A stretch of 64,000 nucleotides of DNA from a virus (Duplodnaviria; Caudoviricetes): positions 1 through 64,000 of IMG/VR virus record IMGVR_UViG_3300037466_003648. The stretch is one strand, 5' to 3'. Below the pieces are notes generated by a model that was given only the letters and a program-made list of their open reading frames with translations, had not been told where the DNA came from and made no database searches. Numbering within the stretch: the stretch's first letter is position 1; every line of letters begins with the position of its first letter. Shown here one piece after another: positions 3,546-45,748 of this stretch. The position numbers were made by a program, and so were the translations under genes.

Positions 3546-5510
3546 ATGTCCAACGAATCCAACATCAAGCACGTCCTGGTGATCGGCCAGCCGACCCAGA
3601 TGGTGGAGGACTTGTTCCCTCACCTGGACCCCAACGAGCCCAAGGCGCCCGACGAGGTGTTCAAGCGCTTCGGTGGCTTCACCTACGTGGATGCGCCCAG
3701 CGAGTTGGTCGACCCTAACAACTGGACGATGATGGGTGGGCAAGGCGACGTGGACGTGCTCACGGACACGCTGCTCTGCTTCGTCAAGAAGGGTGGCGTG
3801 ATCTACCTGGGCAGCGCCCTGGAGCGCACCAGCGATGACCACAAGGCGCTCGTCCAGCTCGACGAGGTCTGCCCCAACGCCATCCTCGACGAGGCCATCG
3901 AGCTGCTCAAGTTGCAGCTGGGCAAGGCGATCGCCGACCCGCTCGACTTCGAGACCGCGGTCATCGAGGCGATGGACGTCCACAACGTCGCGGGTGAGAA
4001 GGTGATCTTCGCCGGTGCCGAAGAGGACAACGTGGCCGCCTTCCACGCGCCGCTGCGTGCCAGCAAGACGCACACGCTCAAGTGGTGCCCGGACGGCACG
4101 ATCGAGCTGGACGGGGCGATTCTCCGGCGCACGGCGCTGATGGGGATCGGCCACCTCAAGACCGAGGTGCTGGGCGGTCGCGTGCTGGAGCCCGGCGAGG
4201 TCGTTGGCTTCATCGCCAACCGGATGGCGCTCAACGGCGTCGACGACCTGGTGGGCTACGGTCGCGCCTTCGGTCCCGGCAAGGAGGACCACACCAACGC
4301 CACCCTCACGGACGAGGGGCGGCAGTTCCGTGCGCACGGGATCGTGGGCGTGGTGAGCGTGCACGGCAACTTCGTGTCGAAGGCCAAGCCCGCGATGGTG
4401 GAGCTGGTGGCGCAAGCGCTGCACCAGCTGGACCCCAAGCAGCCCTTGTTCCTGCACCAGCAGGTCAAGGAGATCTACGAGGGTGAGGAGGCGATGAAAG
4501 CCTTCCGCGCCCAGATGGAGAAGGACGGCCGCGTCACGCTTTTCGGCAAGAGCACCAAGCACACGCGCGTGGACGCGGGCGCTTACTGCCTCTACACCGA
4601 GGATGGGACGGGCACGCTCACCCGCAAGGCGGTGATCGGTAACTTCGAGGTGGGCAACGATGGGTCTATCTACGCTCCCAAGAGCCTGATGGACGGCATC
4701 GCGGGCTACCTCAAGGAGTCGGTGGTTGCCAAGCGTGACTTCGGCACGATGAGCGAGGACTTGCTGTCCCGCTACTACAACGCCGAGGTCGTGGTCAAGG
4801 AGGGCGATCGCCTGCTGCCGGGCGACGTGGTCTTCACCATCGACGGCATTCCGCACACCTGGGAGTCCAAGGCGGACTACGGGATCGTGACGGGTGTGAC
4901 CGACACGATCAGCACCAAGCTGGTGCACTGCGAGGTGCGCATCGACGCCTGGTTCGAGGGCGACTGCAAGATGCGTGGCTTCGGCAAGGGCTTGATCGCC
5001 CCGATGGAAGCCTGCGGCATCACCTGCAACGTCAAGGACGCCATCATCATCGGTGCCGCGGGCATCATCAAGGACAGCGCGGCTGCGAAGTCCAAGATGA
5101 GCAACGAGCGCCGCGAGCGTGTGGTGGTCACCATCGAGTACTGCGAGCGTGACTTCGAGCTGGCGATCGCCAAGCACAACCCCGAGTGGGACGAAGACAC
5201 GCACCAGACGGGTTGTATGACCAAGGTCTACCCGGATCTGTGCGTGATGAGCTTCGACTGCGGCAACCGCACGGTCACCATCATCGACGAGAACGCGCTG
5301 GTGGCCGATGTGACCTTCATGATCGAAGCGTCACCGGTGGGACAGGCGGTCGGGTCGTCTTCGATGACCTTGCCGCAGATGGGCTTCCTGTCCAGCTTGC
5401 CCACCGGCAACGCCTGGCTCAACCAGGAGGCACTGCCCGGCGTCGTGCGCCGCGTGGATGCGCTCACCTACCTGCACGCCGTCAGCAACGGCATCCCTGT
5501 CGAGTTGTAA
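3546..5510 (+). CDS. divergent RNA polymerase beta-like subunit (double-psi beta-barrel carrying the two catalytic-centre lysines)
   Basis: GNDGSIYAPKSL aligns by eye to RpoB YNFEDSILVSER; VKEGDRLLPGDVV to the VxGGDILV region; GDCKMRGFGKGLIAPME (nt ~4959-5006) to GDKMAGRHGNKGVISKI; DAIIIGAAGI to DIVLNPLGV. Confidence 0.8.
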   Translation: MSNESNIKHVLVIGQPTQMVEDLFPHLDPNEPKAPDEVFKRFGGFTYVDAPSELVDPNNWTMMGGQGDVDVLTDTLLCFVKKGGVIYLGSALERTSDDHKALVQLDEVCPNAILDEAIELLKLQLGKAIADPLDFETAVIEAMDVHNVAGEKVIFAGAEEDNVAAFHAPLRASKTHTLKWCPDGTIELDGAILRRTALMGIGHLKTEVLGGRVLEPGEVVGFIANRMALNGVDDLVGYGRAFGPGKEDHTNATLTDEGRQFRAHGIVGVVSVHGNFVSKAKPAMVELVAQALHQLDPKQPLFLHQQVKEIYEGEEAMKAFRAQMEKDGRVTLFGKSTKHTRVDAGAYCLYTEDGTGTLTRKAVIGNFEVGNDGSIYAPKSLMDGIAGYLKESVVAKRDFGTMSEDLLSRYYNAEVVVKEGDRLLPGDVVFTIDGIPHTWESKADYGIVTGVTDTISTKLVHCEVRIDAWFEGDCKMRGFGKGLIAPMEACGITCNVKDAIIIGAAGIIKDSAAAKSKMSNERRERVVVTIEYCERDFELAIAKHNPEWDEDTHQTGCMTKVYPDLCVMSFDCGNRTVTIIDENALVADVTFMIEASPVGQAVGSSSMTLPQMGFLSSLPTGNAWLNQEALPGVVRRVDALTYLHAVSNGIPVEL

Positions 5511-5524
5511 GGAGAGTATCACCG

Positions 5525-7039
5525 ATGTCCAACACCAGCCTGCTGACCGAGTCCACGGTCACCATCCACTACATCGGCCACGAGGCCCTCAACCTGCCCA
5601 CGGTCGGGCTCACCGACCACGAGCTGCTCAAGGAAGCGGCCAAGGAGTTCCCCAAGGGGCTGAACCTGATGGGCAGCAACCTGGGTCCGGTGTGGGTGCA
5701 CCCCACGATGCTGCTCAACCTGGCGCAGCCCGACGGCTTCGGCCTGGAGCTGCAAGGGCTGGCCCACAGCGCGGCGGAGCTGCTGCGCTTGGCGGCCGAC
5801 CCGGAGAAGGCCGACGAGCTGACCGGCAAGGGGATCGACCGCATGATCGCCCTGTTCGCGGCGCAAGCCCACGGGCAGGCGATCGCCAAGCGTCCCAACC
5901 AGCTGCACGCGCACCGCTGGGGTGCCGCGGCCAAGGTGGCCGGTGCCGACCGCGTCACGCCCGGTATGCTGGAGATTCACCCCGAGGGCAACGTGGCCGC
6001 ACGCCTCGCCCAGCTCTTCGGCTGCGTGCCTGGTGCCACGGGCGGTTGGGCCGACCTGGAGGGCCGCCAGCTGATGCTGCTGCGTCACCCGTTCATCCTG
6101 GGCTACGTGGTCACGATCGGGTTCAACGAGAACCTGACCAAGAACCTCACCCTGGTCAACCGCCTGGATGGCCGCCGCGCCACCGGCATGGACTTCGACG
6201 GTGATCAGGTGTTCCTGTTCGCCATCAAGAGCCGCATCATGGCGGCGATGATCGACGCCGAGATCAAGGCAGTCGTGCCGGACAACGACGCCACCAAGCT
6301 CGTGTTGGGCAAGCCCTGCGAGGAGCCCGGCGGCGAGTGGTGGGGCGAGTTGTTGGAGAAGTCCACCGAGCAGAAGCTCGACCAGCACTTCACCAAGACC
6401 ATCGGCGAGTGGATCAACTCCCACATCACAATGGGCGACTACGCCAACAAGTTCACGCCCTTCGCGTATCGGATCTCCGACATTGGTGGCGCCATGGCTG
6501 CCGTGGGCATCCCTGGTGCGCGCGAGATGTCGCTGATCGGCGCCACGATCGAGGAGACCTTCTACCTGGGGCTGTCTGGCGGTCCCAAGGAGCTGGACGA
6601 GGCCATGGAGACCTGGTTCCGCAAGAAGATGAGCGCTGCCAACCAGCGCATCCTCTTCGCGGGGCTGCGCACCGTGGTCAACCCGGACCTGCTCGCCAAC
6701 GCGGATGTCCGCACGGCAATCGCCCGCGGGTCGGCCATCAACGGCGGTCGCTTCGACGACTGCAACCCGCAAGAGCTGCTGGTCCATACCGCCTTCCTGG
6801 TCGGCAAGGGCAAGCTCACCCTGGGCAGCGGCGTGCTGCTCGACCAGCTGGCCCTGATCGCCAGCGAGCCGACGCTGTCGGCCGAGCTGCGCGAGTCGTT
6901 CGTCGCGCGGATGCTCTTCCACGCGGCGCGCAAGCTGCACCAGGTGGTGGGCAAGGGCAATCCCATCGTGGGCGAGACCCCGAGCGACGACTACGAGGCC
7001 GATGGCTTCGAGGAGTACACCTCCGACTTCGAGGAGTAA
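5525..7039 (+). CDS. divergent RNA polymerase beta-prime-like subunit (catalytic DFDGD)
   Basis: SD AAGGAG, ATG 5525; MLLRHP equivalent to RpoC LLNRAP; GMDFDGDQV (DFDGD at nt 6191-6205) equivalent to NADFDGDQM; adjacent to the beta-like gene. Confidence 0.88.
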   Translation: MSNTSLLTESTVTIHYIGHEALNLPTVGLTDHELLKEAAKEFPKGLNLMGSNLGPVWVHPTMLLNLAQPDGFGLELQGLAHSAAELLRLAADPEKADELTGKGIDRMIALFAAQAHGQAIAKRPNQLHAHRWGAAAKVAGADRVTPGMLEIHPEGNVAARLAQLFGCVPGATGGWADLEGRQLMLLRHPFILGYVVTIGFNENLTKNLTLVNRLDGRRATGMDFDGDQVFLFAIKSRIMAAMIDAEIKAVVPDNDATKLVLGKPCEEPGGEWWGELLEKSTEQKLDQHFTKTIGEWINSHITMGDYANKFTPFAYRISDIGGAMAAVGIPGAREMSLIGATIEETFYLGLSGGPKELDEAMETWFRKKMSAANQRILFAGLRTVVNPDLLANADVRTAIARGSAINGGRFDDCNPQELLVHTAFLVGKGKLTLGSGVLLDQLALIASEPTLSAELRESFVARMLFHAARKLHQVVGKGNPIVGETPSDDYEADGFEEYTSDFEE

Positions 7040-10691: not shown

Positions 10692-11252
10692 ATGACCACG
10701 CGTTCCACCCGCACCGCCAACACCGGCACCGAGATCGTCAAGGAGTCGGCCGAGAACATCGAGGCTGCCCCTGCCACCGACGGCCAGGTTGCCGCCACCG
10801 AGAAGGACGCCGAGAAGAAGGCGCCCGGCCCCAACGCCTACGTGGGCAACATCATGCACCTCAAGCGCGAGACCAAGTCCACCGGCAAGGCGTACGCCTT
10901 GGTGATGGTGCGCTTCGTCAACGGCCAGGAGATCGCGCAGAAGGCCGTGCAGGTCTTCCCGCGCACCGAAGGCTTCACCAGCCAGGTCGGCGACATGTTC
11001 GGCTTCGAGGCCAAGCGCCTCGTGGAAGCCTACGACAACGACGACAAGCCGATGAAGCTGGAGGACGGCACGCCCGTCTACCGCGCGTCCGGCGTGGGTC
11101 CCGAGCTGAAGCACTTCACGGTGCGGGCGACCGGCAAGGCCGCCAGCGTGGAGCCGACCGGCGAGATCAAGTCCAACGGCTTGCGCGAGCGCCTGGCGAA
11201 GGCGTCCCCGCTCATGGCCAAGTTCTTGGGTGTCAAGTTCGAGAACTCGTAA
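10692..11252 (+). CDS. hypothetical protein, possibly SSB/OB-fold-like
   Basis: SD GAAAGGAG; very strong codon bias; fold is a guess. Confidence 0.75.
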   Translation: MTTRSTRTANTGTEIVKESAENIEAAPATDGQVAATEKDAEKKAPGPNAYVGNIMHLKRETKSTGKAYALVMVRFVNGQEIAQKAVQVFPRTEGFTSQVGDMFGFEAKRLVEAYDNDDKPMKLEDGTPVYRASGVGPELKHFTVRATGKAASVEPTGEIKSNGLRERLAKASPLMAKFLGVKFENS

Positions 11253-11262
11253 GCTCCACCTT

Positions 11263-11292
11263 GAGTAGGGTCGTGGTAACATGACCCTACTC
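11263..11292 (+). terminator. 13-bp hairpin with GUAA tetraloop before the tRNA array
   Basis: GAGTAGGGTCGTG-GTAA-CATGACCCTACTC. Confidence 0.55.
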
Positions 11293-11302
11293 TCCTCTTC
11301 AA

Positions 11303-11374
11303 GCCTGGCGAGTCAGTGAGGAACGACATGCGGTTGAAACCCGCAGGGACCACGTTCGAGTCGTGGGCCAGGCA
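11303..11374 (+). tRNA. trnF: tRNA-Phe(GAA), CCA not encoded
   Basis: Acceptor GCCTGGC/GCCAGGC, D-stem GTC/GAC, anticodon arm TGCGG-TTGAAAC-CCGCA, T-arm CCACG-TTCGAGT-CGTGG; G instead of U at position 8. Confidence 0.8.
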
Positions 11375-11380
11375 CTAGAT

Positions 11381-11433
11381 CACTCTGTACCAACTAATCT
11401 CCTTCGGGAGGGCAGGTGGGCTCCTACAGAGTG
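11381..11433 (+). ncRNA. 53-nt long hairpin with cUUCGg apex between tRNAs
   Basis: CACTCTGTA/TACAGAGTG basal stem; TCTCC-TTCG-GGAGG apex. Confidence 0.45.
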
Positions 11434-11445
11434 GTCGACCTTCAT

Positions 11446-11521
11446 GGGTAGGTGGTCCAGTAAGCAGGACGCGAGTGTGAAAAGCTCGGGGCACCGTGTG
11501 CAATTCCGGTCCTACCCACCA
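11446..11521 (+). tRNA. atypical tRNA, anticodon GAA (Phe), with encoded CCA
   Basis: Acceptor GGGTAGG/CCTACCC-A-CCA, D-stem GTCC/GGAC, CGAGT-GTGAAAA-GCTCG; G32 and a non-canonical T-arm (ACCGTGTGCAATTCCGGT). Confidence 0.6.
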
Positions 11522-11524
11522 TTT

Positions 11525-11598
11525 CCTCGGGACGCCGAAGGTCGGCAGGCGCTACCAGAACATGCGCCCTCTAGGTGGTTCGATTCCATCCCCGAGGA
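11525..11598 (+). ncRNA. tRNA-like RNA with an expanded 11-nt anticodon loop
   Basis: Acceptor CCTCGGG/CCCGAGG-A, D-arm GCCG-AAGGT-CGGC, stem GGCGC/GCGCC around TACCAGAACAT, T-arm GGTGG-TTCGATT-CCATC. Confidence 0.65.
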
Positions 11599-11612
11599 CT
11601 TACACAACTCAC

Positions 11613-11783
11613 GGGCGTGTCAGCACCCTATCCGGCGGGTGCACCCGTGTCGTGACCCTAGCAGGATGACACCCTGCGAAGGTCTAAGCTACACTGTCCC
11701 AGGCGGTGTGAAAGCCGTGTTCTGGGGTGTTAACAGCGTAGTGATGGCACGGGAGGTGGCGGGTTCAAATCCCGTCGCGCCCA
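11613..11783 (+). ncRNA. tRNA-like RNA whose anticodon loop is replaced by a ~90-nt two-hairpin domain
   Basis: Acceptor GGGCGTG/CGCGCCC-A, 6-bp D-stem GCACCC/GGGTGC, 10-bp stem CCCGTGTCGT/ATGGCACGGG, variable AGGTG, T-arm GCGGG-TTCAAAT-CCCGT. Confidence 0.7.
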
Positions 11784-11792
11784 CCCCTTTCT

Positions 11793-11941
11793 CTGGAAGT
11801 AGCTCAGCGGTAGAGCACGCGCATTTCGCCCATAGCTCAGTGGTAGAGCGCACCCCAGTTAAGGGTGAGGTCCCCGGTTCGAATCCGGGTGGGCGAGCCA
11901 ACGGCGCGCGGGGCGGTGGTTCAAGTCCATCCTTCCAGACC
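11793..11941 (+). ncRNA. split (outer) tRNA body enclosing tRNA-Asn in its anticodon loop
   Basis: 5' half CTGGAAG-TA-GCTC-AGCGGTA-GAGC-A-CGCGC (11793-11822); 3' half GCGCG-GGGC-GGTGG-TTCAAGT-CCATC-CTTCCAG-A (11906-11939); all stems pair across the insert. Confidence 0.7.
11826..11900 (+). tRNA. trnN: tRNA-Asn(GTT) with encoded CCA; A instead of U at position 33
   Basis: Acceptor TCGCCCA/TGGGCGA-G-CCA, D-arm GCTC-AGTGGTA-GAGC, CACCC-CAGTTAA-GGGTG, T-arm CCCGG-TTCGAAT-CCGGG. Confidence 0.9.
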
Positions 11942-12051
11942 TTTTGAACCTTGGGGGTTGAGAGCCCCGAGCGTGCGGCTGCAGCGTCACGAAGCGGCAA
12001 GTCCGCTGGTCACCGAGATCTCTAGGTGGACCAGCACCAGGACGGCAACGG

Positions 12052-12093
12052 GGTGGGGAGTGCCCAGACGTGGGTCCCCACCGCTTTGTTTTT
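12052..12093 (+). terminator. intrinsic terminator ending the tRNA transcript
   Basis: GGTGGGGA...CCCA-GACG-TGGG-TCCCCACC followed by GCTTTGTTTTT. Confidence 0.55.
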
Positions 12094-12247
12094 CGGGCGG
12101 CGCGCCATCGATACAGTCACGACCTGTGCCAGTGTCACCGGTGCAGCGATGGGCTTCTTTTGTGTGGCTTCGAGCCTTTAATGTGCTTCTAGCGTGCATC
12201 TACAGGCTCGATCCGTGTCAGAAGAGCCTTGTTGCTGCAGGGGTGGG

Positions 12248-12267
12248 CTAGTGTCATTTGACACTAG
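12248..12267. promoter_or_regulatory. operator/iteron-like inverted repeat CTAGTGTCA-TT-TGACACTAG
   Basis: Perfect 9-bp arms; same TGACA core as the neighbouring repeats. Confidence 0.55.
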
Positions 12268-12296
12268 CTTTGGCACTGCCAAGTATGGTAGACTCG

Positions 12297-12332
12297 AAAA
12301 AGAAGAGCGATCCCGTTGCCGCGGGATCGCTC
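12297..12332 (-). terminator. intrinsic terminator oriented for minus-strand transcription
   Basis: GAGCGATCCCG-N6-CGGGATCGCTC preceded on + by AAAAAGAA, which is the U-tract on the minus strand. Confidence 0.5.
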
Positions 12333-12370
12333 GGTGACAGAACCTACCTCGGACGAACAAGGTGACCTTG

Positions 12371-12934
12371 ATGCTACCACAGAACAACAGGGGTGACAAG
12401 CCCTATGACGTTCCACGGAACCTGCAGTCCAACTACACCAACATCCACTGGGACAAGTTGCCTCCGGGAGCTGTGGCGGTGTTGTCACTGGGTAGTGACA
12501 CTGCTAACTTCGAGACGTTGTACTACTTGGCAGCGTGTATGGCACGTCTACCAGGTCGACACCGACCCCGTGTCGAAGCTGCATTGGATCTTTGGGTAGC
12601 GGGCAACAAACGCCTCGAACCCCTAGTGACACCTGCAGTACGTCGTGCGTTCGAGACGGTCTTCGCCAACAGCAAAGGAGCACCCCCTGTGTCCAAGAAT
12701 CTCACCGCTAATGAGAAACGTATCTTCGCGGCCCTGACTAATCTTCAGCCATCGCCCCACGAGATCTTCGAGGTTAGCTATAAGCAAATCGCGGAAGAAT
12801 CTGGTGTTCCCATAAGGAGCGTGATTAGGTCCGTCAAGAAGATGGCAGAGGTGCGGGGTGCCATCGAGATGGCTCCACCAGAACCCGGTAATCCGCACGC
12901 CAGCAACGCTTACAGGATTCCCGAGGAAAAGTAG
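12371..12934 (+). CDS. winged-HTH DNA-binding protein, replication-initiator-like
   Basis: C-terminal SYKQIAEESGVPIRSVIRSVKKMAEVRGAIE followed by a wing ending SNAYRI; lower GC than flanking genes; start could be GTG 12362. Confidence 0.65.
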   Translation: MLPQNNRGDKPYDVPRNLQSNYTNIHWDKLPPGAVAVLSLGSDTANFETLYYLAACMARLPGRHRPRVEAALDLWVAGNKRLEPLVTPAVRRAFETVFANSKGAPPVSKNLTANEKRIFAALTNLQPSPHEIFEVSYKQIAEESGVPIRSVIRSVKKMAEVRGAIEMAPPEPGNPHASNAYRIPEEK

Positions 12935-42304: not shown

Positions 42305-42583
42305 ATGTCCTACCAACCGCCCCACAAGCGAGGTACCCACAGGTTCGACCGTCCCCGCTGCGTCGCGTGCAACGGTTCCGGTTATGCCGAGTTCCCACGC
42401 GCCGTCGAGCGGGTCGAGGTGATGTTGGGTGACAGTGGTCTCTCCGTCACGCGCACCGTCTACGAGGGCGTGCGTCAGATCGGCACGGGCGCCTACATCA
42501 AGTTCAGCGGCAAGCACGTCGCCGTGAAGAAGGTGGACGGCAAGTGGGTTACCGAAAACCCGGAAGAGGCGGTGGTCAGGTGA
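42305..42583 (+). CDS. hypothetical protein with CVACNGSG motif
   Basis: GCCGAAGGAG RBS. Confidence 0.65.
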
Positions 42584-43206
42584 GTCGCGCGTTCCTGAAC
42601 AACGAGATCTACATCAGCGTCGATGTCGAGACCGACGGCCCCATCCCCGGCCCCAACTCGATGTTGTCGCTGGGCGCCGCCGCGTATCGGATCGAGATCG
42701 TCAATGGCAAACTCGTGCCCGTGCTGCTGGACACCTTCAGCATGAACATCGAGCAGCTGTGGGATGCCAAGCCCGATCCCGAGACCGAAGCCTGGTGGAA
42801 GACCCAACCTGCTGCTTGGGAAGCTTGTCGCAAGGACCCACAGAAGCCTGGTGTCGTCATGAAGCTGTTCAGCCAGTGGGTCGAAGAGACCTCGAAGGAA
42901 GCTAATGCGAAGCCCGTCTTCGTGGGCTACCCTGCGGGCTTCGACTTCCTCTTCGTCTACTGGTACCTGATCCGCTTCGTGGGTAAGAGCCCCTTCTCGT
43001 TCTCCGCGCTGGACGTCAAGACGTTCGCCATGGCCGTGTTGGGCACCGAGTACCGCAACTCGACGAAGCGCAACATGCCCAAGGGATGGTTCCCCAAGGT
43101 CCGCCACAACCACATCGCGGTCGATGATGCCGTGGAGCAGGGCGAGTTGTTCTGCAACATGTTCATCGACAACTACCGCCGCCGTAAGCCCAACACGACC
43201 CTTTAG
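42580..43206 (+). CDS. DEDDh 3'-5' exo(ribo)nuclease (Rv2179c/RNase AS-like)
   Basis: SVDVETDGP (ExoI), AGFDF (ExoII), HIAVDDA (ExoIII). Confidence 0.85.
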
Positions 43207-44626: not shown

Positions 44627-45748
44627 ATGAGCACCGTCCGCACCACCATCGAGCGTCTGGTCAACGTCCGGCCGCACACCAACTCTGACAACCTGAACCT
44701 CGCCATCGTGCGTGGCTGGCAAATGGTCATGAACGACCGCAACGCGGAGAACCCGCGTAAGACCGGCGACCTGGTCGTTTACTTCGAGGCGGGCACCGTG
44801 CTTCCGTTGAAGTGGGCCGAGAAGTTCGAGGTCGTCAACTACCTCTCCAACAAGACGGACATCGAGGGCAACAAGGTCTTGGTGGTCGGCAAGGTCCGCT
44901 TGCGGGGCGAGCCCAGCTTCGGTCTCACGGTTCCCGTCGCCGAGGCGCTGGCCCTGATGGACGAGCCGGACACCGCGGTTCTGTTCGAGGGCGACGACGT
45001 GTCGCACCTCTTCGGCACCAGCAAGTACCGGCCGCCGGTCAAGGCGAGCGCGGGTGACGCCGAGGAGGATCACCCGCACTTCCAGCCCTACACCGACATC
45101 GAGAACCTGCGCAACTTCCCCAACATCATCGAGGAAGGCGAAGAGGTCACCTACCGCGAGAAGCTGCACGGCACGAACTGTCGCGTGGGCTTCGTGCGCT
45201 GTGACGAAGATCCCAACTGCATCGTCCGCATGGCGGGCTCGCGCGAACTGCGGCGCAAGGCGCCCAAGACCGACGACGAGATGGCCGCCAACACCTACTG
45301 GTTCCCGTGGACGCTGGAGTCGGTCAGCTTGATGCTCAGCCACCTGGGTATTCAAGGTAACCAGAGCGCGACGCTGTACGGTGAGGTCTACGGTGGTGGC
45401 GTCCAGAAGGGCTTCGACTACGGCCACAAGCGTCCGCAGTTCCGCGCCTTTGACCTGTCGGTCAACGGCAAGTACCTGGACGATCCCGAGTTCGAGGCGC
45501 TGTGCCAGGAGTTCGGTATCGAGGTGGCGCCGCTCGCGTACCGCGGTCCCCACAACATGGCCAAGCTCAAGGAGCTGGCTGAAGGCAAGACGGCCATCGA
45601 GGGTGCCACGCATATCAGCGAGGGCATCGTCGTAACCCCCACCAAGGAGCGTGTCCACCCGCAGGTGGGTCGCGTGATCCTCAAGTACGTGTCGGATGCC
45701 TACCTCTTCCGCAAGGGCGGGGATGACGACGACACGACCGACGTGTAA
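44627..45748 (+). CDS. ATP-dependent RNA ligase, DRB0094/Rnl2-type
   Basis: N-terminal HTNSDNLNLAIVRGWQ and GDLVVYFE; ligase motifs EKLHGTN (I), YGEVYG (III), FRAFDL (IIIa), EGIVV (IV), ILKYVS (V). Confidence 0.88.
   Translation: MSTVRTTIERLVNVRPHTNSDNLNLAIVRGWQMVMNDRNAENPRKTGDLVVYFEAGTVLPLKWAEKFEVVNYLSNKTDIEGNKVLVVGKVRLRGEPSFGLTVPVAEALALMDEPDTAVLFEGDDVSHLFGTSKYRPPVKASAGDAEEDHPHFQPYTDIENLRNFPNIIEEGEEVTYREKLHGTNCRVGFVRCDEDPNCIVRMAGSRELRRKAPKTDDEMAANTYWFPWTLESVSLMLSHLGIQGNQSATLYGEVYGGGVQKGFDYGHKRPQFRAFDLSVNGKYLDDPEFEALCQEFGIEVAPLAYRGPHNMAKLKELAEGKTAIEGATHISEGIVVTPTKERVHPQVGRVILKYVSDAYLFRKGGDDDDTTDV

What the first reader, a model, noticed from the sequence alone, without database searches (positions are those of the whole stretch)
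11613..11783. tRNA chassis carrying a ~90-nt folded domain in place of the anticodon loop
Seen: a 7-bp acceptor stem, a 6-bp D-stem, a canonical T-arm with TTCAAAT and discriminator A. The anticodon stem is extended to 10 bp and ends in a junction with two hairpins: GACC/GGTC plus GCAGG/CCTGC (11654-11684), and CTACACTGT/ACAGCGTAG plus CCCAGG/TCTGGG plus CGGT-GTGAAA-GCCG (11689-11741). It lacks the G3-U70 pair and tag ORF of tmRNA and is too short for a group I intron. Inference: either a novel tRNA-scaffolded ncRNA (an aptamer or decoy stabilised by tRNA processing) or a protein-spliced intron that would restore a CGU (Thr) anticodon.
Basis: partly seen in the sequence, partly recalled or inferred. 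Interest (0 to 1): 0.85.

Follow-up and report, generated by a model that had tools for sequence, protein, structure and literature searches.

The report
tRNA-shaped phage RNA with two anticodon-arm look-alikes
A soil jumbo phage carries a real tRNA-shaped gene whose anticodon loop is replaced by about 90 bases folding into two hairpins that each resemble an anticodon arm; it almost certainly cannot read codons, it is found only in this phage lineage, and its job (perhaps a decoy for a tRNA-cutting host enzyme) is untested.

Summary
Window 11613-11783 (+) folds as described: 7-bp acceptor stem, 6-bp D stem, canonical T arm (UUCAAAU), A73, and a 10-bp "anticodon" stem opening into two hairpins (MFE -86.4 kcal/mol, z about -4.8; + strand better than - strand). 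It sits in register in a small operon of odd tRNA-like genes in a 205-kb soil phage with strong Shine-Dalgarno usage, so the host is probably bacterial.

It matches no Rfam family and is neither tmRNA nor a group I intron, and it has no bulge-helix-bulge motif. The "spliced tRNA-Thr(CGU)" reading is not supported:
- Position 37 would be G, not A.
- The body is non-canonical; 0 of 42 in-silico spliced forms are called a tRNA.
- The phage already has a normal tRNA-Thr(CGU).

New here:
- Both insert hairpins have anticodon-arm geometry, with loops AUGACAC and GUGAAA (U-G-A-M-A; 0 of 3000 shuffles give two such loops).
- The operon is conserved in three related phages as GAA (Phe)-type tRNA look-alikes carrying other insertions.
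- No relative has this element, and no expression data exist.

Best reading: a lineage-specific, non-decoding tRNA-derived RNA, possibly a decoy; decaying recombination debris remains a serious rival. This scan's unchecked notes describe comparable anticodon-less tRNA look-alikes in other phages, and Lak megaphages have published "enigmatic tRNA introns".

The parts
11613..11619 (+). Acceptor stem, 5' strand (GGGCGUG)
   Evidence: Pairs with 11776-11782 (7 bp, one U-G)
11623..11642 (+). D arm. 6-bp stem GCACCC/GGGUGC and 8-nt loop UAUCCGGC, preceded by a 3-nt connector (11620-11622).
   Evidence: MFE fold. The geometry is non-canonical, which explains the failure of ARAGORN and Rfam.
11644..11653 (+). 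Extended 'anticodon' stem, 5' strand (CCCGUGUCGU)
   Evidence: 10 continuous bp with 11744-11753, including 2 G-U pairs
11654..11684 (+). Passenger hairpin 1. Stalk GACC/GGUC, internal loop CUA/GAA, then a 5-bp stem GCAGG/CCUGC with the 7-nt loop AUGACAC. This is anticodon-arm geometry (U33-like U, GAC, A37-like A).
   Evidence: Fold (z -4.2 alone). Loop motif test. A 10-mer UGCGAAGGUC is shared with the anticodon-stem/variable-loop junction of tRNA-Asn at genome 84550. A strain SNP, G11676A, breaks the C11662-G11676 pair.
11688..11742 (+). Passenger hairpin 2. A rod of about 19 bp with 3' bulges, ending in a 5-bp stem GCGGU/GCCGU and the 6-nt loop GUGAAA. The tip resembles the anticodon arm of the neighbouring tRNA-Phe(GAA).
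   Evidence: Fold. Local alignments to Phe#1, Phe#2 and the main-array tRNA-Phe. The three Phe tRNAs rank 3rd to 5th of 36.
11744..11753 (+). Extended 'anticodon' stem, 3' strand (AUGGCACGGG)
11759..11775 (+). T arm (GCGGG-UUCAAAU-CCCGU)
   Evidence: Canonical T loop with a G53-C61 equivalent. The 24-mer from here to 11782 is identical to the T arm/acceptor of real tRNA-Arg(CCG) genes of haloarchaea.
11776..11783 (+). Acceptor stem 3' strand (CGCGCCC) plus discriminator A73. It is followed by CCC, not CCA.
11303..11375 (+). Operon member Phe#1, a tRNA-Phe(GAA)-like gene with loop UUGAAAC
   Evidence: ARAGORN. Conserved in relative L002 with compensatory changes at three acceptor pairs and in the D stem.
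11446..11521 (+). Operon member Phe#2, a tRNA-Phe(GAA) with loop GUGAAAA and an encoded CCA
   Evidence: Rfam tRNA, 43.9 bits; ARAGORN -ps
11524..11599 (+). Operon member C, a tRNA-like gene with an 11-nt anticodon loop UACCAGAACAU
   Evidence: Among the phage's tRNAs its nearest is tRNA-Phe (score 21 against 11 for the next). ARAGORN does not call it even after loop trimming.
11793..11939 (+). Operon member E, a tRNA shell whose anticodon loop holds a complete tRNA-Asn(GUU, A33)-CCA gene (11826-11900)
12050..12094 (+). Intrinsic-terminator-like hairpin plus U run that closes the operon
   Evidence: Sequence and fold. The U run and the block after it are conserved in L009 and L010.

Best explanation
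The element is a real, tRNA-derived RNA gene that does not decode.

It lies in tRNA-array register (12 nt after the previous member, about 9 nt before the next) in a short operon that runs to a terminator.

Inferred processing: its intact acceptor/T-arm minihelix and elbow nucleotides should let host RNase P, 3' trimming enzymes and the CCA-adding enzyme mature and stabilise it like a tRNA.

In place of an anticodon loop, a 10-bp stem carries two hairpins, each built like an anticodon arm:
- a 5-bp stem with loop AUGACAC;
- a 5-bp stem with loop GUGAAA, at the tip of a long rod.
Both loops read U-G-A-M-A, as in tRNA-Val(GAC) and tRNA-Phe(GAA). The sequences that follow them resemble tRNA variable loops. 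The passenger was therefore probably assembled from the 'bottom halves' of tRNA genes.

The apparent anticodons sit far from the elbow, so the RNA cannot work on the ribosome.

Most likely function (inference, not shown): within an operon devoted to remodelled GAA-type tRNAs, it acts as a stable decoy or competitor for a factor that reads U33-G34-A35 anticodon arms. An example would be a host anticodon nuclease or a tRNA-modifying enzyme.

My odds: a functional non-decoding tRNA-like RNA about 0.55; the decoy mechanism specifically about 0.25-0.3. The confidence given below (0.4) is for the statement as a whole.
For: Shown:
- Fold and statistics.
- The frame is unique to the two tRNA regions genome-wide.
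- No protein gene was called across 11253-12370 by the JGI or Logan annotations of the identical contig.
- Array-like spacing and a downstream terminator.
- It is not a canonical tRNA in any spliced form. The control shell E passes.
- Both apical loops of the insert carry UGA[AC]A. Among 3000 dinucleotide shuffles of the insert, 1.4% have one such loop and none has two.
- The hairpin 2 tip aligns with the anticodon arms of all three phage tRNA-Phe genes, which rank 3rd to 5th of 36 tRNAs.

Operon context:
- Related phages L002, L009 and L010 have tRNA-like genes after the same conserved gene. In L009 and L010, where the end is present, they precede the same terminator block.
- Those genes all keep GAA loops (CUGAACA or CUGAAAA) despite compensatory stem changes and different inserted hairpins.
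- L009 also has a free-standing stalked hairpin with an anticodon-loop-like CUGAAAC tip.

Genome context:
- The phage has a full ordinary tRNA set, including Phe, Val, Asn and Thr, so this operon is not needed for plain decoding.
- It encodes an RNA ligase and a 3'-5' exoribonuclease.

Background: phage tRNAs with altered anticodon loops are proposed or shown to evade host tRNA nucleases (PMC10264068, PMC11464382, PMC11555353; abstracts).
Against: - The element is a singleton. No homologue exists in L009 or L010, or in IMG/VR, JGI metagenomes or the phage records searched, so there is no covariation support.
- No expression or processing data exist.
- The only strain polymorphism inside it (G11676A) breaks a base pair in hairpin 1.
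- The UGAMA motif was defined after seeing the loops.
- The hairpin 2 tip has a 6-nt loop, not 7 nt, and it aligns equally well or better with tRNA-Leu(CAG) and tRNA-Ser(CGA), the latter apparently via its variable arm.
- The insert folds equally well on either strand.
- No nuclease or other partner is known, and the host is unidentified.
Confidence: 0.4

Rival explanations
1. Evolutionary debris. A tRNA gene in a recombination-prone array was disrupted when fragments of other tRNA genes (anticodon arm plus variable loop of a Val- or Asn-like and a Phe-like tRNA) were inserted into its anticodon loop. It is transcribed only because it lies in the operon and has no function of its own.
For: - It is lineage-specific and absent from L009 and L010.
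- The insert shows patchy similarity to tRNA bottom halves.
- The neighbouring members C and E also have wrecked anticodon loops.
- Relatives show other rearrangements, such as a duplicated D arm in L009 unit 2.
- The SNP G11676A breaks a pair.
- SNP density in the element is no lower than in its flanks.
- This scan's unchecked notes describe tRNA genes split by small cassettes in other genomes.
Against: - All 56 predicted pairs are intact, with no mismatch inside the helices other than the designed bulges. The T loop and elbow nucleotides are intact.
- Both passenger tips keep anticodon-loop-like sequences.
- Phage genomes usually delete useless DNA.
- The cluster is retained unchanged, apart from 3 SNPs, in a strain whose adjacent 140 nt were replaced.
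- No copy of the insert exists elsewhere in the genome, so it is not a repeat or MITE.
Confidence: 0.3
2. The tRNA frame is a scaffold for a passenger with an unrelated job, such as an aptamer or protein-binding or regulatory RNA. The frame only supplies processing and stability, as in engineered tRNA scaffolds. The anticodon-loop likeness of the tips is incidental.
For: The architecture is the same as engineered tRNA scaffolds: anticodon stem kept and extended, passenger in place of the loop. The scaffold literature is listed (e.g. PMC3753655). The passenger fold is stable. It has a 3x3 internal loop and a three-way junction typical of protein-binding RNAs.
Against: There is no Rfam motif and no complementarity of more than 14 nt to anything in the phage genome. 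Nothing is conserved that could point to a ligand or partner. The loop motif coincidence would go unexplained.
Confidence: 0.12
3. An intron-bearing pre-tRNA. The ~90 nt are removed by host or phage nucleases, the halves are resealed by the phage RNA ligase, and a decoding tRNA results.
For: - The phage encodes an RNA ligase (PF09414 plus OB domain) and an exoribonuclease.
- The neighbour E would be cut into two annealed halves by ordinary tRNA processing of its nested tRNA-Asn.
- Lak megaphages are reported to have tRNAs with 'enigmatic introns' (PMC6784885).
Against: - There is no group I, group II or ribozyme signature.
- There is no bulge-helix-bulge.
- The host is probably bacterial.
- No RtcB is encoded.
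- Position 37 would be G for a Thr anticodon.
- The body is non-canonical and is not called a tRNA in any of 42 spliced forms.
- A normal tRNA-Thr(CGU) is already present.
Confidence: 0.07
4. Not an RNA gene. The palindromic structure acts at the DNA level, for example as a recombination, replication or packaging signal.
For: The insert folds equally well on both strands. Inverted-repeat-rich, origin-like DNA lies just downstream, according to an unchecked first-reader note.
Against: The whole element folds 13 kcal/mol better on the + strand and has 7 G-U pairs. It has a canonical T loop, an acceptor closure and array register among tRNA genes, all on the same strand.
Confidence: 0.03

Closest known systems
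'Enigmatic introns' in tRNAs of Lak megaphages (Devoto et al. 2019, PMC6784885)
   Same: They are phage tRNA genes, in large phages with big tRNA sets, interrupted by inserted sequence of unknown nature. One insert is itself predicted to be a tRNA, like neighbour E here. No Rfam classification was reported in the passages I read.
   Different: Those were recognised as tRNAs by tRNAscan in eukaryotic mode, and alleles with and without the insert were available. Here the frame is non-canonical, no insert-free allele exists, the insert consists of two anticodon-arm-like hairpins, and the phage is an unrelated high-GC soil phage. No sequence comparison was possible because the Lak sequences are not held.
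Phage T4 RNAC and RNAD (species 1 and 2 RNAs) from the T4 tRNA region
   Same: They are small stable RNAs co-transcribed with phage tRNAs whose roles are unknown (PMC3014915).
   Different: Nothing here tests sequence or structural relatedness. From my own knowledge, not tested here, the T4 RNAs are 119-140 nt and are not a cloverleaf with a passenger in the anticodon loop.
Engineered tRNA scaffolds for recombinant RNA (Ponchon and Dardel approach; e.g. PMC3753655)
   Same: The architecture is identical: an intact acceptor, D and T frame, an extended anticodon stem, and a structured passenger replacing the anticodon loop. The presumed benefit is tRNA-type processing and nuclease resistance.
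   Different: Those are man-made. This is a natural gene with unknown purpose.
Phage tRNAs with altered anticodon loops that evade host tRNA nucleases (PMC10264068; PARIS, PMC11464382; retron Eco7, PMC11555353)
   Same: They are extra phage tRNA copies with unusual anticodon-loop positions. The same operon here holds two GAA tRNAs with odd position 32, 37 or 38 and a tRNA-Asn with A33.
   Different: Those are decoding tRNAs that replace cleaved host tRNAs. This element cannot decode. A decoy role is my inference and has no experimental precedent that I found.
Intron-containing tRNAs: bacterial group I introns in anticodon loops, and archaeal or eukaryal BHB introns
   Same: The insertion is at the anticodon loop, and the anticodon-side nucleotides pair with the insert to lengthen the stem.
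   Different: The insert is too short for a group I intron and has no group I core (no RF00028 hit). There is no bulge-helix-bulge, and the product would not be a canonical tRNA.
Anticodon-less tRNA look-alikes noted earlier by this scan in other phages (unchecked AI notes, e.g. e1-3805043, e1-4045479, e1-3432050)
   Same: They are tRNA top halves kept, with a variable folded module or rod where the anticodon arm should be, often inside phage tRNA arrays.
   Different: There is no sequence overlap with this element. Those notes describe Leu- or Ala-type frames with conserved families. This one is a singleton that keeps the anticodon stem.

Membership tests
Canonical tRNA (Rfam RF00005) | Scores above the family threshold as a cloverleaf with a 7-nt anticodon loop | tested here: not met
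   There is no RF00005 hit over 11613-11783 at the gathering score or at E <= 10. ARAGORN does not call it, with or without intron mode.
Intron-containing tRNA (any splicing type) | Removing the insert leaves a canonical tRNA with a sensible anticodon loop (U33, purine 37; A37 for ANN codons) | tested here: not met
   0 of 42 spliced variants are called by ARAGORN, even at -ps90. The control shell E is called in 54 of 84. The CGU reading gives G37.
Group I intron in a tRNA anticodon loop | A catalytic core of about 200 nt or more (P3-P9), matching RF00028 | tested here: not met
   The insert is about 90 nt and gives no Rfam hit at E <= 10.
Archaeal/eukaryal BHB tRNA intron | A bulge-helix-bulge (3-4-3) at the exon-intron borders, and a splicing endonuclease in the host | tested here: not met
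   The stem is a continuous 10-bp helix running straight into a three-way junction. Strong SD usage (15 of 16 genes) and a bacterial-type tRNA-Asn point to a bacterial host. The host's endonuclease content cannot be tested.
tmRNA | G3-U70, a tag reading frame, pseudoknots | tested here: not met
   ARAGORN -m finds nothing. The pair is G3-C70. There is no stop-terminated tag frame; the only open frame runs through the whole cluster.
Y RNA-like YrlA (RF02553) | Family score, a Ro60/Rsr-binding stem, and linkage to rsr | tested here: not met
   There is only a 19.9-bit partial hit (threshold 69), spanning this element's T arm and the next element's D arm. No TROVE/Ro60 gene is in the genome.
Self-cleaving ribozymes (hammerhead, twister, pistol, hatchet, HDV-like) | A match to the family covariance model | tested here: not met
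   There are no hits at E <= 10 in 11200-12400.
Non-decoding tRNA-like RNAs of phage tRNA arrays (loose, mostly undescribed class) | An intact acceptor/T-arm minihelix and elbow, no usable anticodon arm, and location in a tRNA array | tested here: met
   for the frame, and for array register. Whether the RNA is made and stable was not testable (no RNA run listed).
Non-decoding tRNA-like RNAs of phage tRNA arrays (loose, mostly undescribed class) | Conservation of the element in related phages | tested here: not met
   The operon is conserved but this element is not. L009 and L010 lack it, and L002 is truncated.

The most novel reading that the evidence does not exclude
A natural 'tRNA scaffold' decoy. 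The phage makes a tRNA-processed, nuclease-resistant RNA that displays two anticodon-arm mimics (GAC and GAA type). The RNA soaks up or jams a host anticodon nuclease, or another reader of U33-G34-A35 arms. It would belong to a fast-evolving RNA-only counter-defence operon that also includes loop-altered tRNA-Phe copies and a tRNA nested in a tRNA.
Probability: 0.2. Interest if true: 0.8.

Novelty: new variant of a known kind. Interest (0 to 1): 0.5.

Why it matters
Phage tRNA genes are now understood partly as weapons in conflicts over the host tRNA pool. The known cases are decoding tRNAs that escape cleavage. A stable, tRNA-shaped RNA that cannot decode but presents anticodon-arm copies would be a different tactic: an RNA decoy. 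It would also be a natural counterpart of the tRNA scaffolds used in RNA engineering.

The operon gives a compact test bed. About 800 nt hold five differently remodelled tRNA-like genes, and three related phages have variants. That allows a test of whether the 'oversized' or 'intron-containing' tRNAs reported in large phages are functional RNAs, spliced tRNAs or debris.

If it is debris, it still documents how readily tRNA arrays in this phage clade recombine.

Tried and rejected
- Rfam at gathering and at E <= 10 gave nothing for the element. The only hits were tRNA hits for neighbours, a 16.8-bit mascRNA hit and a 19.9-bit YrlA hit, both far below threshold.
- ARAGORN gave no call in standard, intron (0-300 and 0-3000 nt), low-threshold or tmRNA modes. 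The -ps90 intron mode floods the genome with false calls, so I ignored it.
- No repeats of the insert occur elsewhere in the 205-kb genome.
- Homologue searches:
  - 'phages' blastn found only ordinary tRNA matches to the nested tRNA-Asn.
  - Four IMG/VR scans and two JGI metagenome scans found no relative. The queries were flanking proteins, an RNAP alignment, the conserved Phe#1 core and the conserved terminator block.
  - The word-index protein search on both flanking genes found only the query itself.
- A structural pattern (GUGUGAAAGC ... GGUUCRANUCC) gave 11 IMG/VR hits. All are unrelated, for example the variable arm of a tRNA-Ser followed by the next tRNA's T arm.
- The 24-nt T-arm/acceptor string hit more than 120 haloarchaeal tRNA-Arg(CCG) genes.
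  - I considered an archaeal virus, which would have made BHB splicing plausible, and rejected it.
  - Reasons: strong SD usage, a bacterial-type tRNA-Asn, soil/rhizosphere origin, and no similarity beyond the minihelix.
- RNA evidence: no RNA holder was listed for the cluster.
- Laying contigs of four DNA runs showed only near-identical strains. The reported 'joint 11600->12084' has a 29-nt side and conflicts with the same contig aligning continuously to 11943, so I treat it as an alignment artefact of a replaced segment.
- Ro60/TROVE, RtcB, CCA-adding enzyme and PheRS were not found in the phage.
- The promoter-like match inside the element (11666-11695) is a weak consensus hit and was not used.

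Full report
**Where it lies.** The window is the first 64 kb of a complete 205,180-bp virus record with direct terminal repeats. The record has about 62% G+C and comes from soil and rhizosphere metagenomes.
- The phage has an ordinary large tRNA array at genome 83958-87783. It holds 32 tRNAs, including Phe-GAA, Val-GAC, Asn-GUU and Thr-CGU.
- It also has a separate small cluster at window 11303-11941, which contains the finding.
- Genes upstream use strong Shine-Dalgarno sites (15 of 16, background 21%). The tRNA-Asn in the cluster has the bacterial U1-A72/G73 form. The host is therefore most likely a bacterium.

**The observation.**
Coordinates are under 'parts'.
- The fold is much more stable than shuffles (z -4.8). 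It is 13 kcal/mol better on the + strand and uses 7 G-U pairs.
- I scanned both strands of the whole genome for a T arm followed by a 7-bp acceptor closure within 60-420 nt. All 30 hits lie on the + strand inside the two tRNA regions. Apart from a few hits that are alternative pairings across neighbouring tRNAs, this element (171 nt) and its right-hand neighbour (147 nt) are the only oversized ones.
- The tRNA frame is real. The JGI and Logan gene calls on an identical contig place no protein gene in 11253-12370.

**What it is not.**
- No Rfam family matches, even at E <= 10. That excludes known ribozymes, group I introns, tmRNA and riboswitches.
- ARAGORN finds neither a tRNA, an intron-tRNA nor a tmRNA.
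- The Y-RNA-like hit is 19.9 bits against a threshold of 69 and straddles two elements. The genome has no Ro60 gene.
- The spliced tRNA-Thr(CGU) idea fails on several counts:
  - Position 37 would be G, whereas the phage's true tRNA-Thr(CGU) has the expected A37.
  - The helix is continuous, with no bulge-helix-bulge.
  - The body has a 3-nt connector and a 6-bp D stem.
  - None of 42 in-silico spliced versions is called a tRNA, while the shell of the neighbouring nested element is called in 54 of 84 versions.
  - No RtcB is encoded, although an RNA ligase (PF09414 with an N-terminal OB domain) and an Rv2179c-like exoribonuclease are.

**The operon.** From the stop codon of a conserved 186-aa gene to a terminator at 12050-12094, the order is:
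- a hairpin;
- Phe#1 (GAA, loop UUGAAAC);
- a long hairpin;
- Phe#2 (GAA, loop GUGAAAA, CCA encoded);
- C, a Phe-like frame with an 11-nt loop containing CAGAACA;
- the finding;
- E, a canonical tRNA shell with a whole tRNA-Asn(GUU, A33)-CCA in its anticodon loop.

**Relatives.** The phage's RNAP subunit has homologues at 41-70% identity only in Logan, ENA and JGI contigs. A profile of the upstream 186-aa protein found further relatives.
- L002 keeps Phe#1, with compensatory changes at three acceptor pairs and in the D stem. Its contig ends 154 nt later.
- L009 and L010 carry complete operons after the homologous gene. The operons end in the same U-run and downstream block.
- L009 has a canonical tRNA-Phe (Rfam 54.5 bits, loop CUGAACA), a stalked hairpin with a CUGAAAC tip, and a second GAA unit with a duplicated D arm.
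- L010 has two GAA units, each with an extra hairpin in the D loop.
- More distant relatives (L011, L012) go straight to a terminator.
- The conserved feature is therefore an operon of GAA-type tRNA look-alikes that tolerate, or exploit, inserted hairpins. Members C, the finding and E exist only in this phage and its near-identical strains.
- One strain (runs X5, X6) keeps the whole cluster with 3 SNPs, while the 140 nt after it are replaced. The one SNP in the finding, G11676A, breaks a C-G pair in hairpin 1.

**The passenger.**
- Hairpin 1 ends in a 5-bp stem and the 7-nt loop A-U-GAC-A-C. That is exact anticodon-arm geometry, with a U33-like U and an A37-like A.
- It is followed by GAAGGUC. 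The 10-mer UGCGAAGGUC is identical to the anticodon-stem/variable-loop junction of the phage's tRNA-Asn.
- Hairpin 2 ends in a 5-bp stem with a U-G closing pair and the loop GUGAAA. It matches the anticodon arm of Phe#2 at 12 of 12 positions with one gap.
- Hairpin 2 also matches the main tRNA-Phe over CAGGC...UGAAA...GCCGUGUU, which includes that tRNA's variable loop.
- The three Phe tRNAs rank 3rd to 5th of 36. tRNA-Leu(CAG) and tRNA-Ser(CGA) score as well or better, the latter apparently through its variable arm, so homology is suggestive and not proven.
- Both tips read UGA[AC]A. Among 3000 dinucleotide shuffles of the insert, 1.4% give one such apical loop and none gives two. The motif was chosen after seeing the data.
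- The insert is not repeated elsewhere in the genome.

**Interpretation.**
- Shown: the element is a tRNA-shaped gene in array register, with an intact minihelix and elbow nucleotides and no usable anticodon arm.
- Inferred from what RNase P, 3' trimming enzymes and CCA-adding enzymes are known to require: it is matured and stabilised like a tRNA.
- Inferred: the passenger derives from tRNA bottom halves and displays two anticodon-arm mimics of the G34-A35 type.
- Speculative: it is a decoy for a host factor that reads such arms. This would fit an operon otherwise made of loop-altered GAA tRNAs, and it fits the literature on phage tRNAs versus tRNA nucleases (PMC10264068, PMC11464382, PMC11555353).
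- The main rival is that C, the finding and E are recombination debris in an unstable array. I cannot exclude this, because the element is a singleton with no covariation or expression data.

**Comparison with what is known.**
- Lak megaphages were reported to have tRNAs with 'enigmatic introns', one of them a tRNA inside a tRNA (PMC6784885).
- T4 makes RNAC and RNAD of unknown role from its tRNA region (PMC3014915).
- Engineered tRNA scaffolds have exactly this layout.
- This scan's unchecked notes list many anticodon-less tRNA look-alikes in other phages. None shares sequence with this element.
- I therefore rate it a new variant of a known but unexplained kind, of moderate interest.

Noticed in passing
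window 11793-11939 (nested tRNA-Asn 11826-11900): A canonical tRNA shell (7-bp acceptor, perfect D and T arms, CGCGC/GCGCG anticodon stem) has a complete tRNA-Asn(GUU)-CCA gene in its anticodon loop. With the inner tRNA removed in silico, ARAGORN calls the shell a tRNA in 54 of 84 variants. Ordinary RNase P and 3' processing of the inner tRNA would cut the shell into two annealed halves.
   Followed up: partly
window 11524-11599: A tRNA-like gene has an 11-nt anticodon loop UACCAGAACAU. Its closest tRNA in the genome is tRNA-Phe. The loop contains CAGAACA, which is the relatives' CUGAACA with A at the U33 position.
   Followed up: partly
window 11826-11897: The extra tRNA-Asn(GUU) has A33 instead of the near-universal U33 (loop CAGUUAA). 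The main-array tRNA-Asn has the normal CUGUUAA.
   Followed up: no
window 11759-11782; loci L026-L105: The 24-nt T arm plus acceptor 3' strand of the finding is identical to that of tRNA-Arg(CCG) genes in more than 120 haloarchaeal genomes. The rest of the molecule is unrelated. This is probably convergence in GC-rich tRNAs; the origin of the frame is unknown.
   Followed up: partly
window 12084-12125; L009 2375-2415; L010 1528-1570: Right after the operon terminator, a block (UUGUUUUU, GGCGGC, CGAYACAGWCACGA) is conserved among three phages whose flanking sequence is otherwise diverged. It could be a regulatory or origin-related site next to the HTH gene.
   Followed up: no
L009 2071-2117; L009 2118-2216; L010 1156-1252 and 1261-1337: Relatives carry a free-standing stalked hairpin with an anticodon-loop-like CUGAAAC tip, and GAA tRNA-like genes with a duplicated D arm or extra hairpins in the D loop. 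Several have a 31-39 mismatch and C37.
   Followed up: partly
genome 86272-86411 and 85800-85922 (outside the window): The main array also holds a 140-nt second tRNA-Ile(GAU)-like gene with a variable region of about 72 nt forming two hairpins, and a tRNA-like element with inserted hairpins and an 8-nt loop AUUCUGUG. The aberrant extra copies in this phage all carry G34 anticodons (GAA, GAU, GUU; the GAC and GAA mimics).
   Followed up: partly
window 44627-45745 and 42544-43203: There is an RNA ligase (PF09414 with a PHA02142 OB-fold N-terminal domain) and an Rv2179c-like 3'-5' exoribonuclease. They suggest an RNA repair or processing capacity, but nothing links them to the tRNA-like operon.
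   Followed up: partly
window 11944-12083: In a co-occurring strain (runs X5, X6) this 140-nt stretch between the cluster and the terminator is replaced by about 114 nt of different sequence, while the tRNA-like cluster is kept with 3 SNPs.
   Followed up: no
window 3546-7039: The two RNAP-like genes (654 and 504 aa) have homologues at 41-70% identity only in uncultivated soil and other metagenome contigs. None is in IMG/VR apart from this phage. The clade is essentially unsampled.
   Followed up: partly
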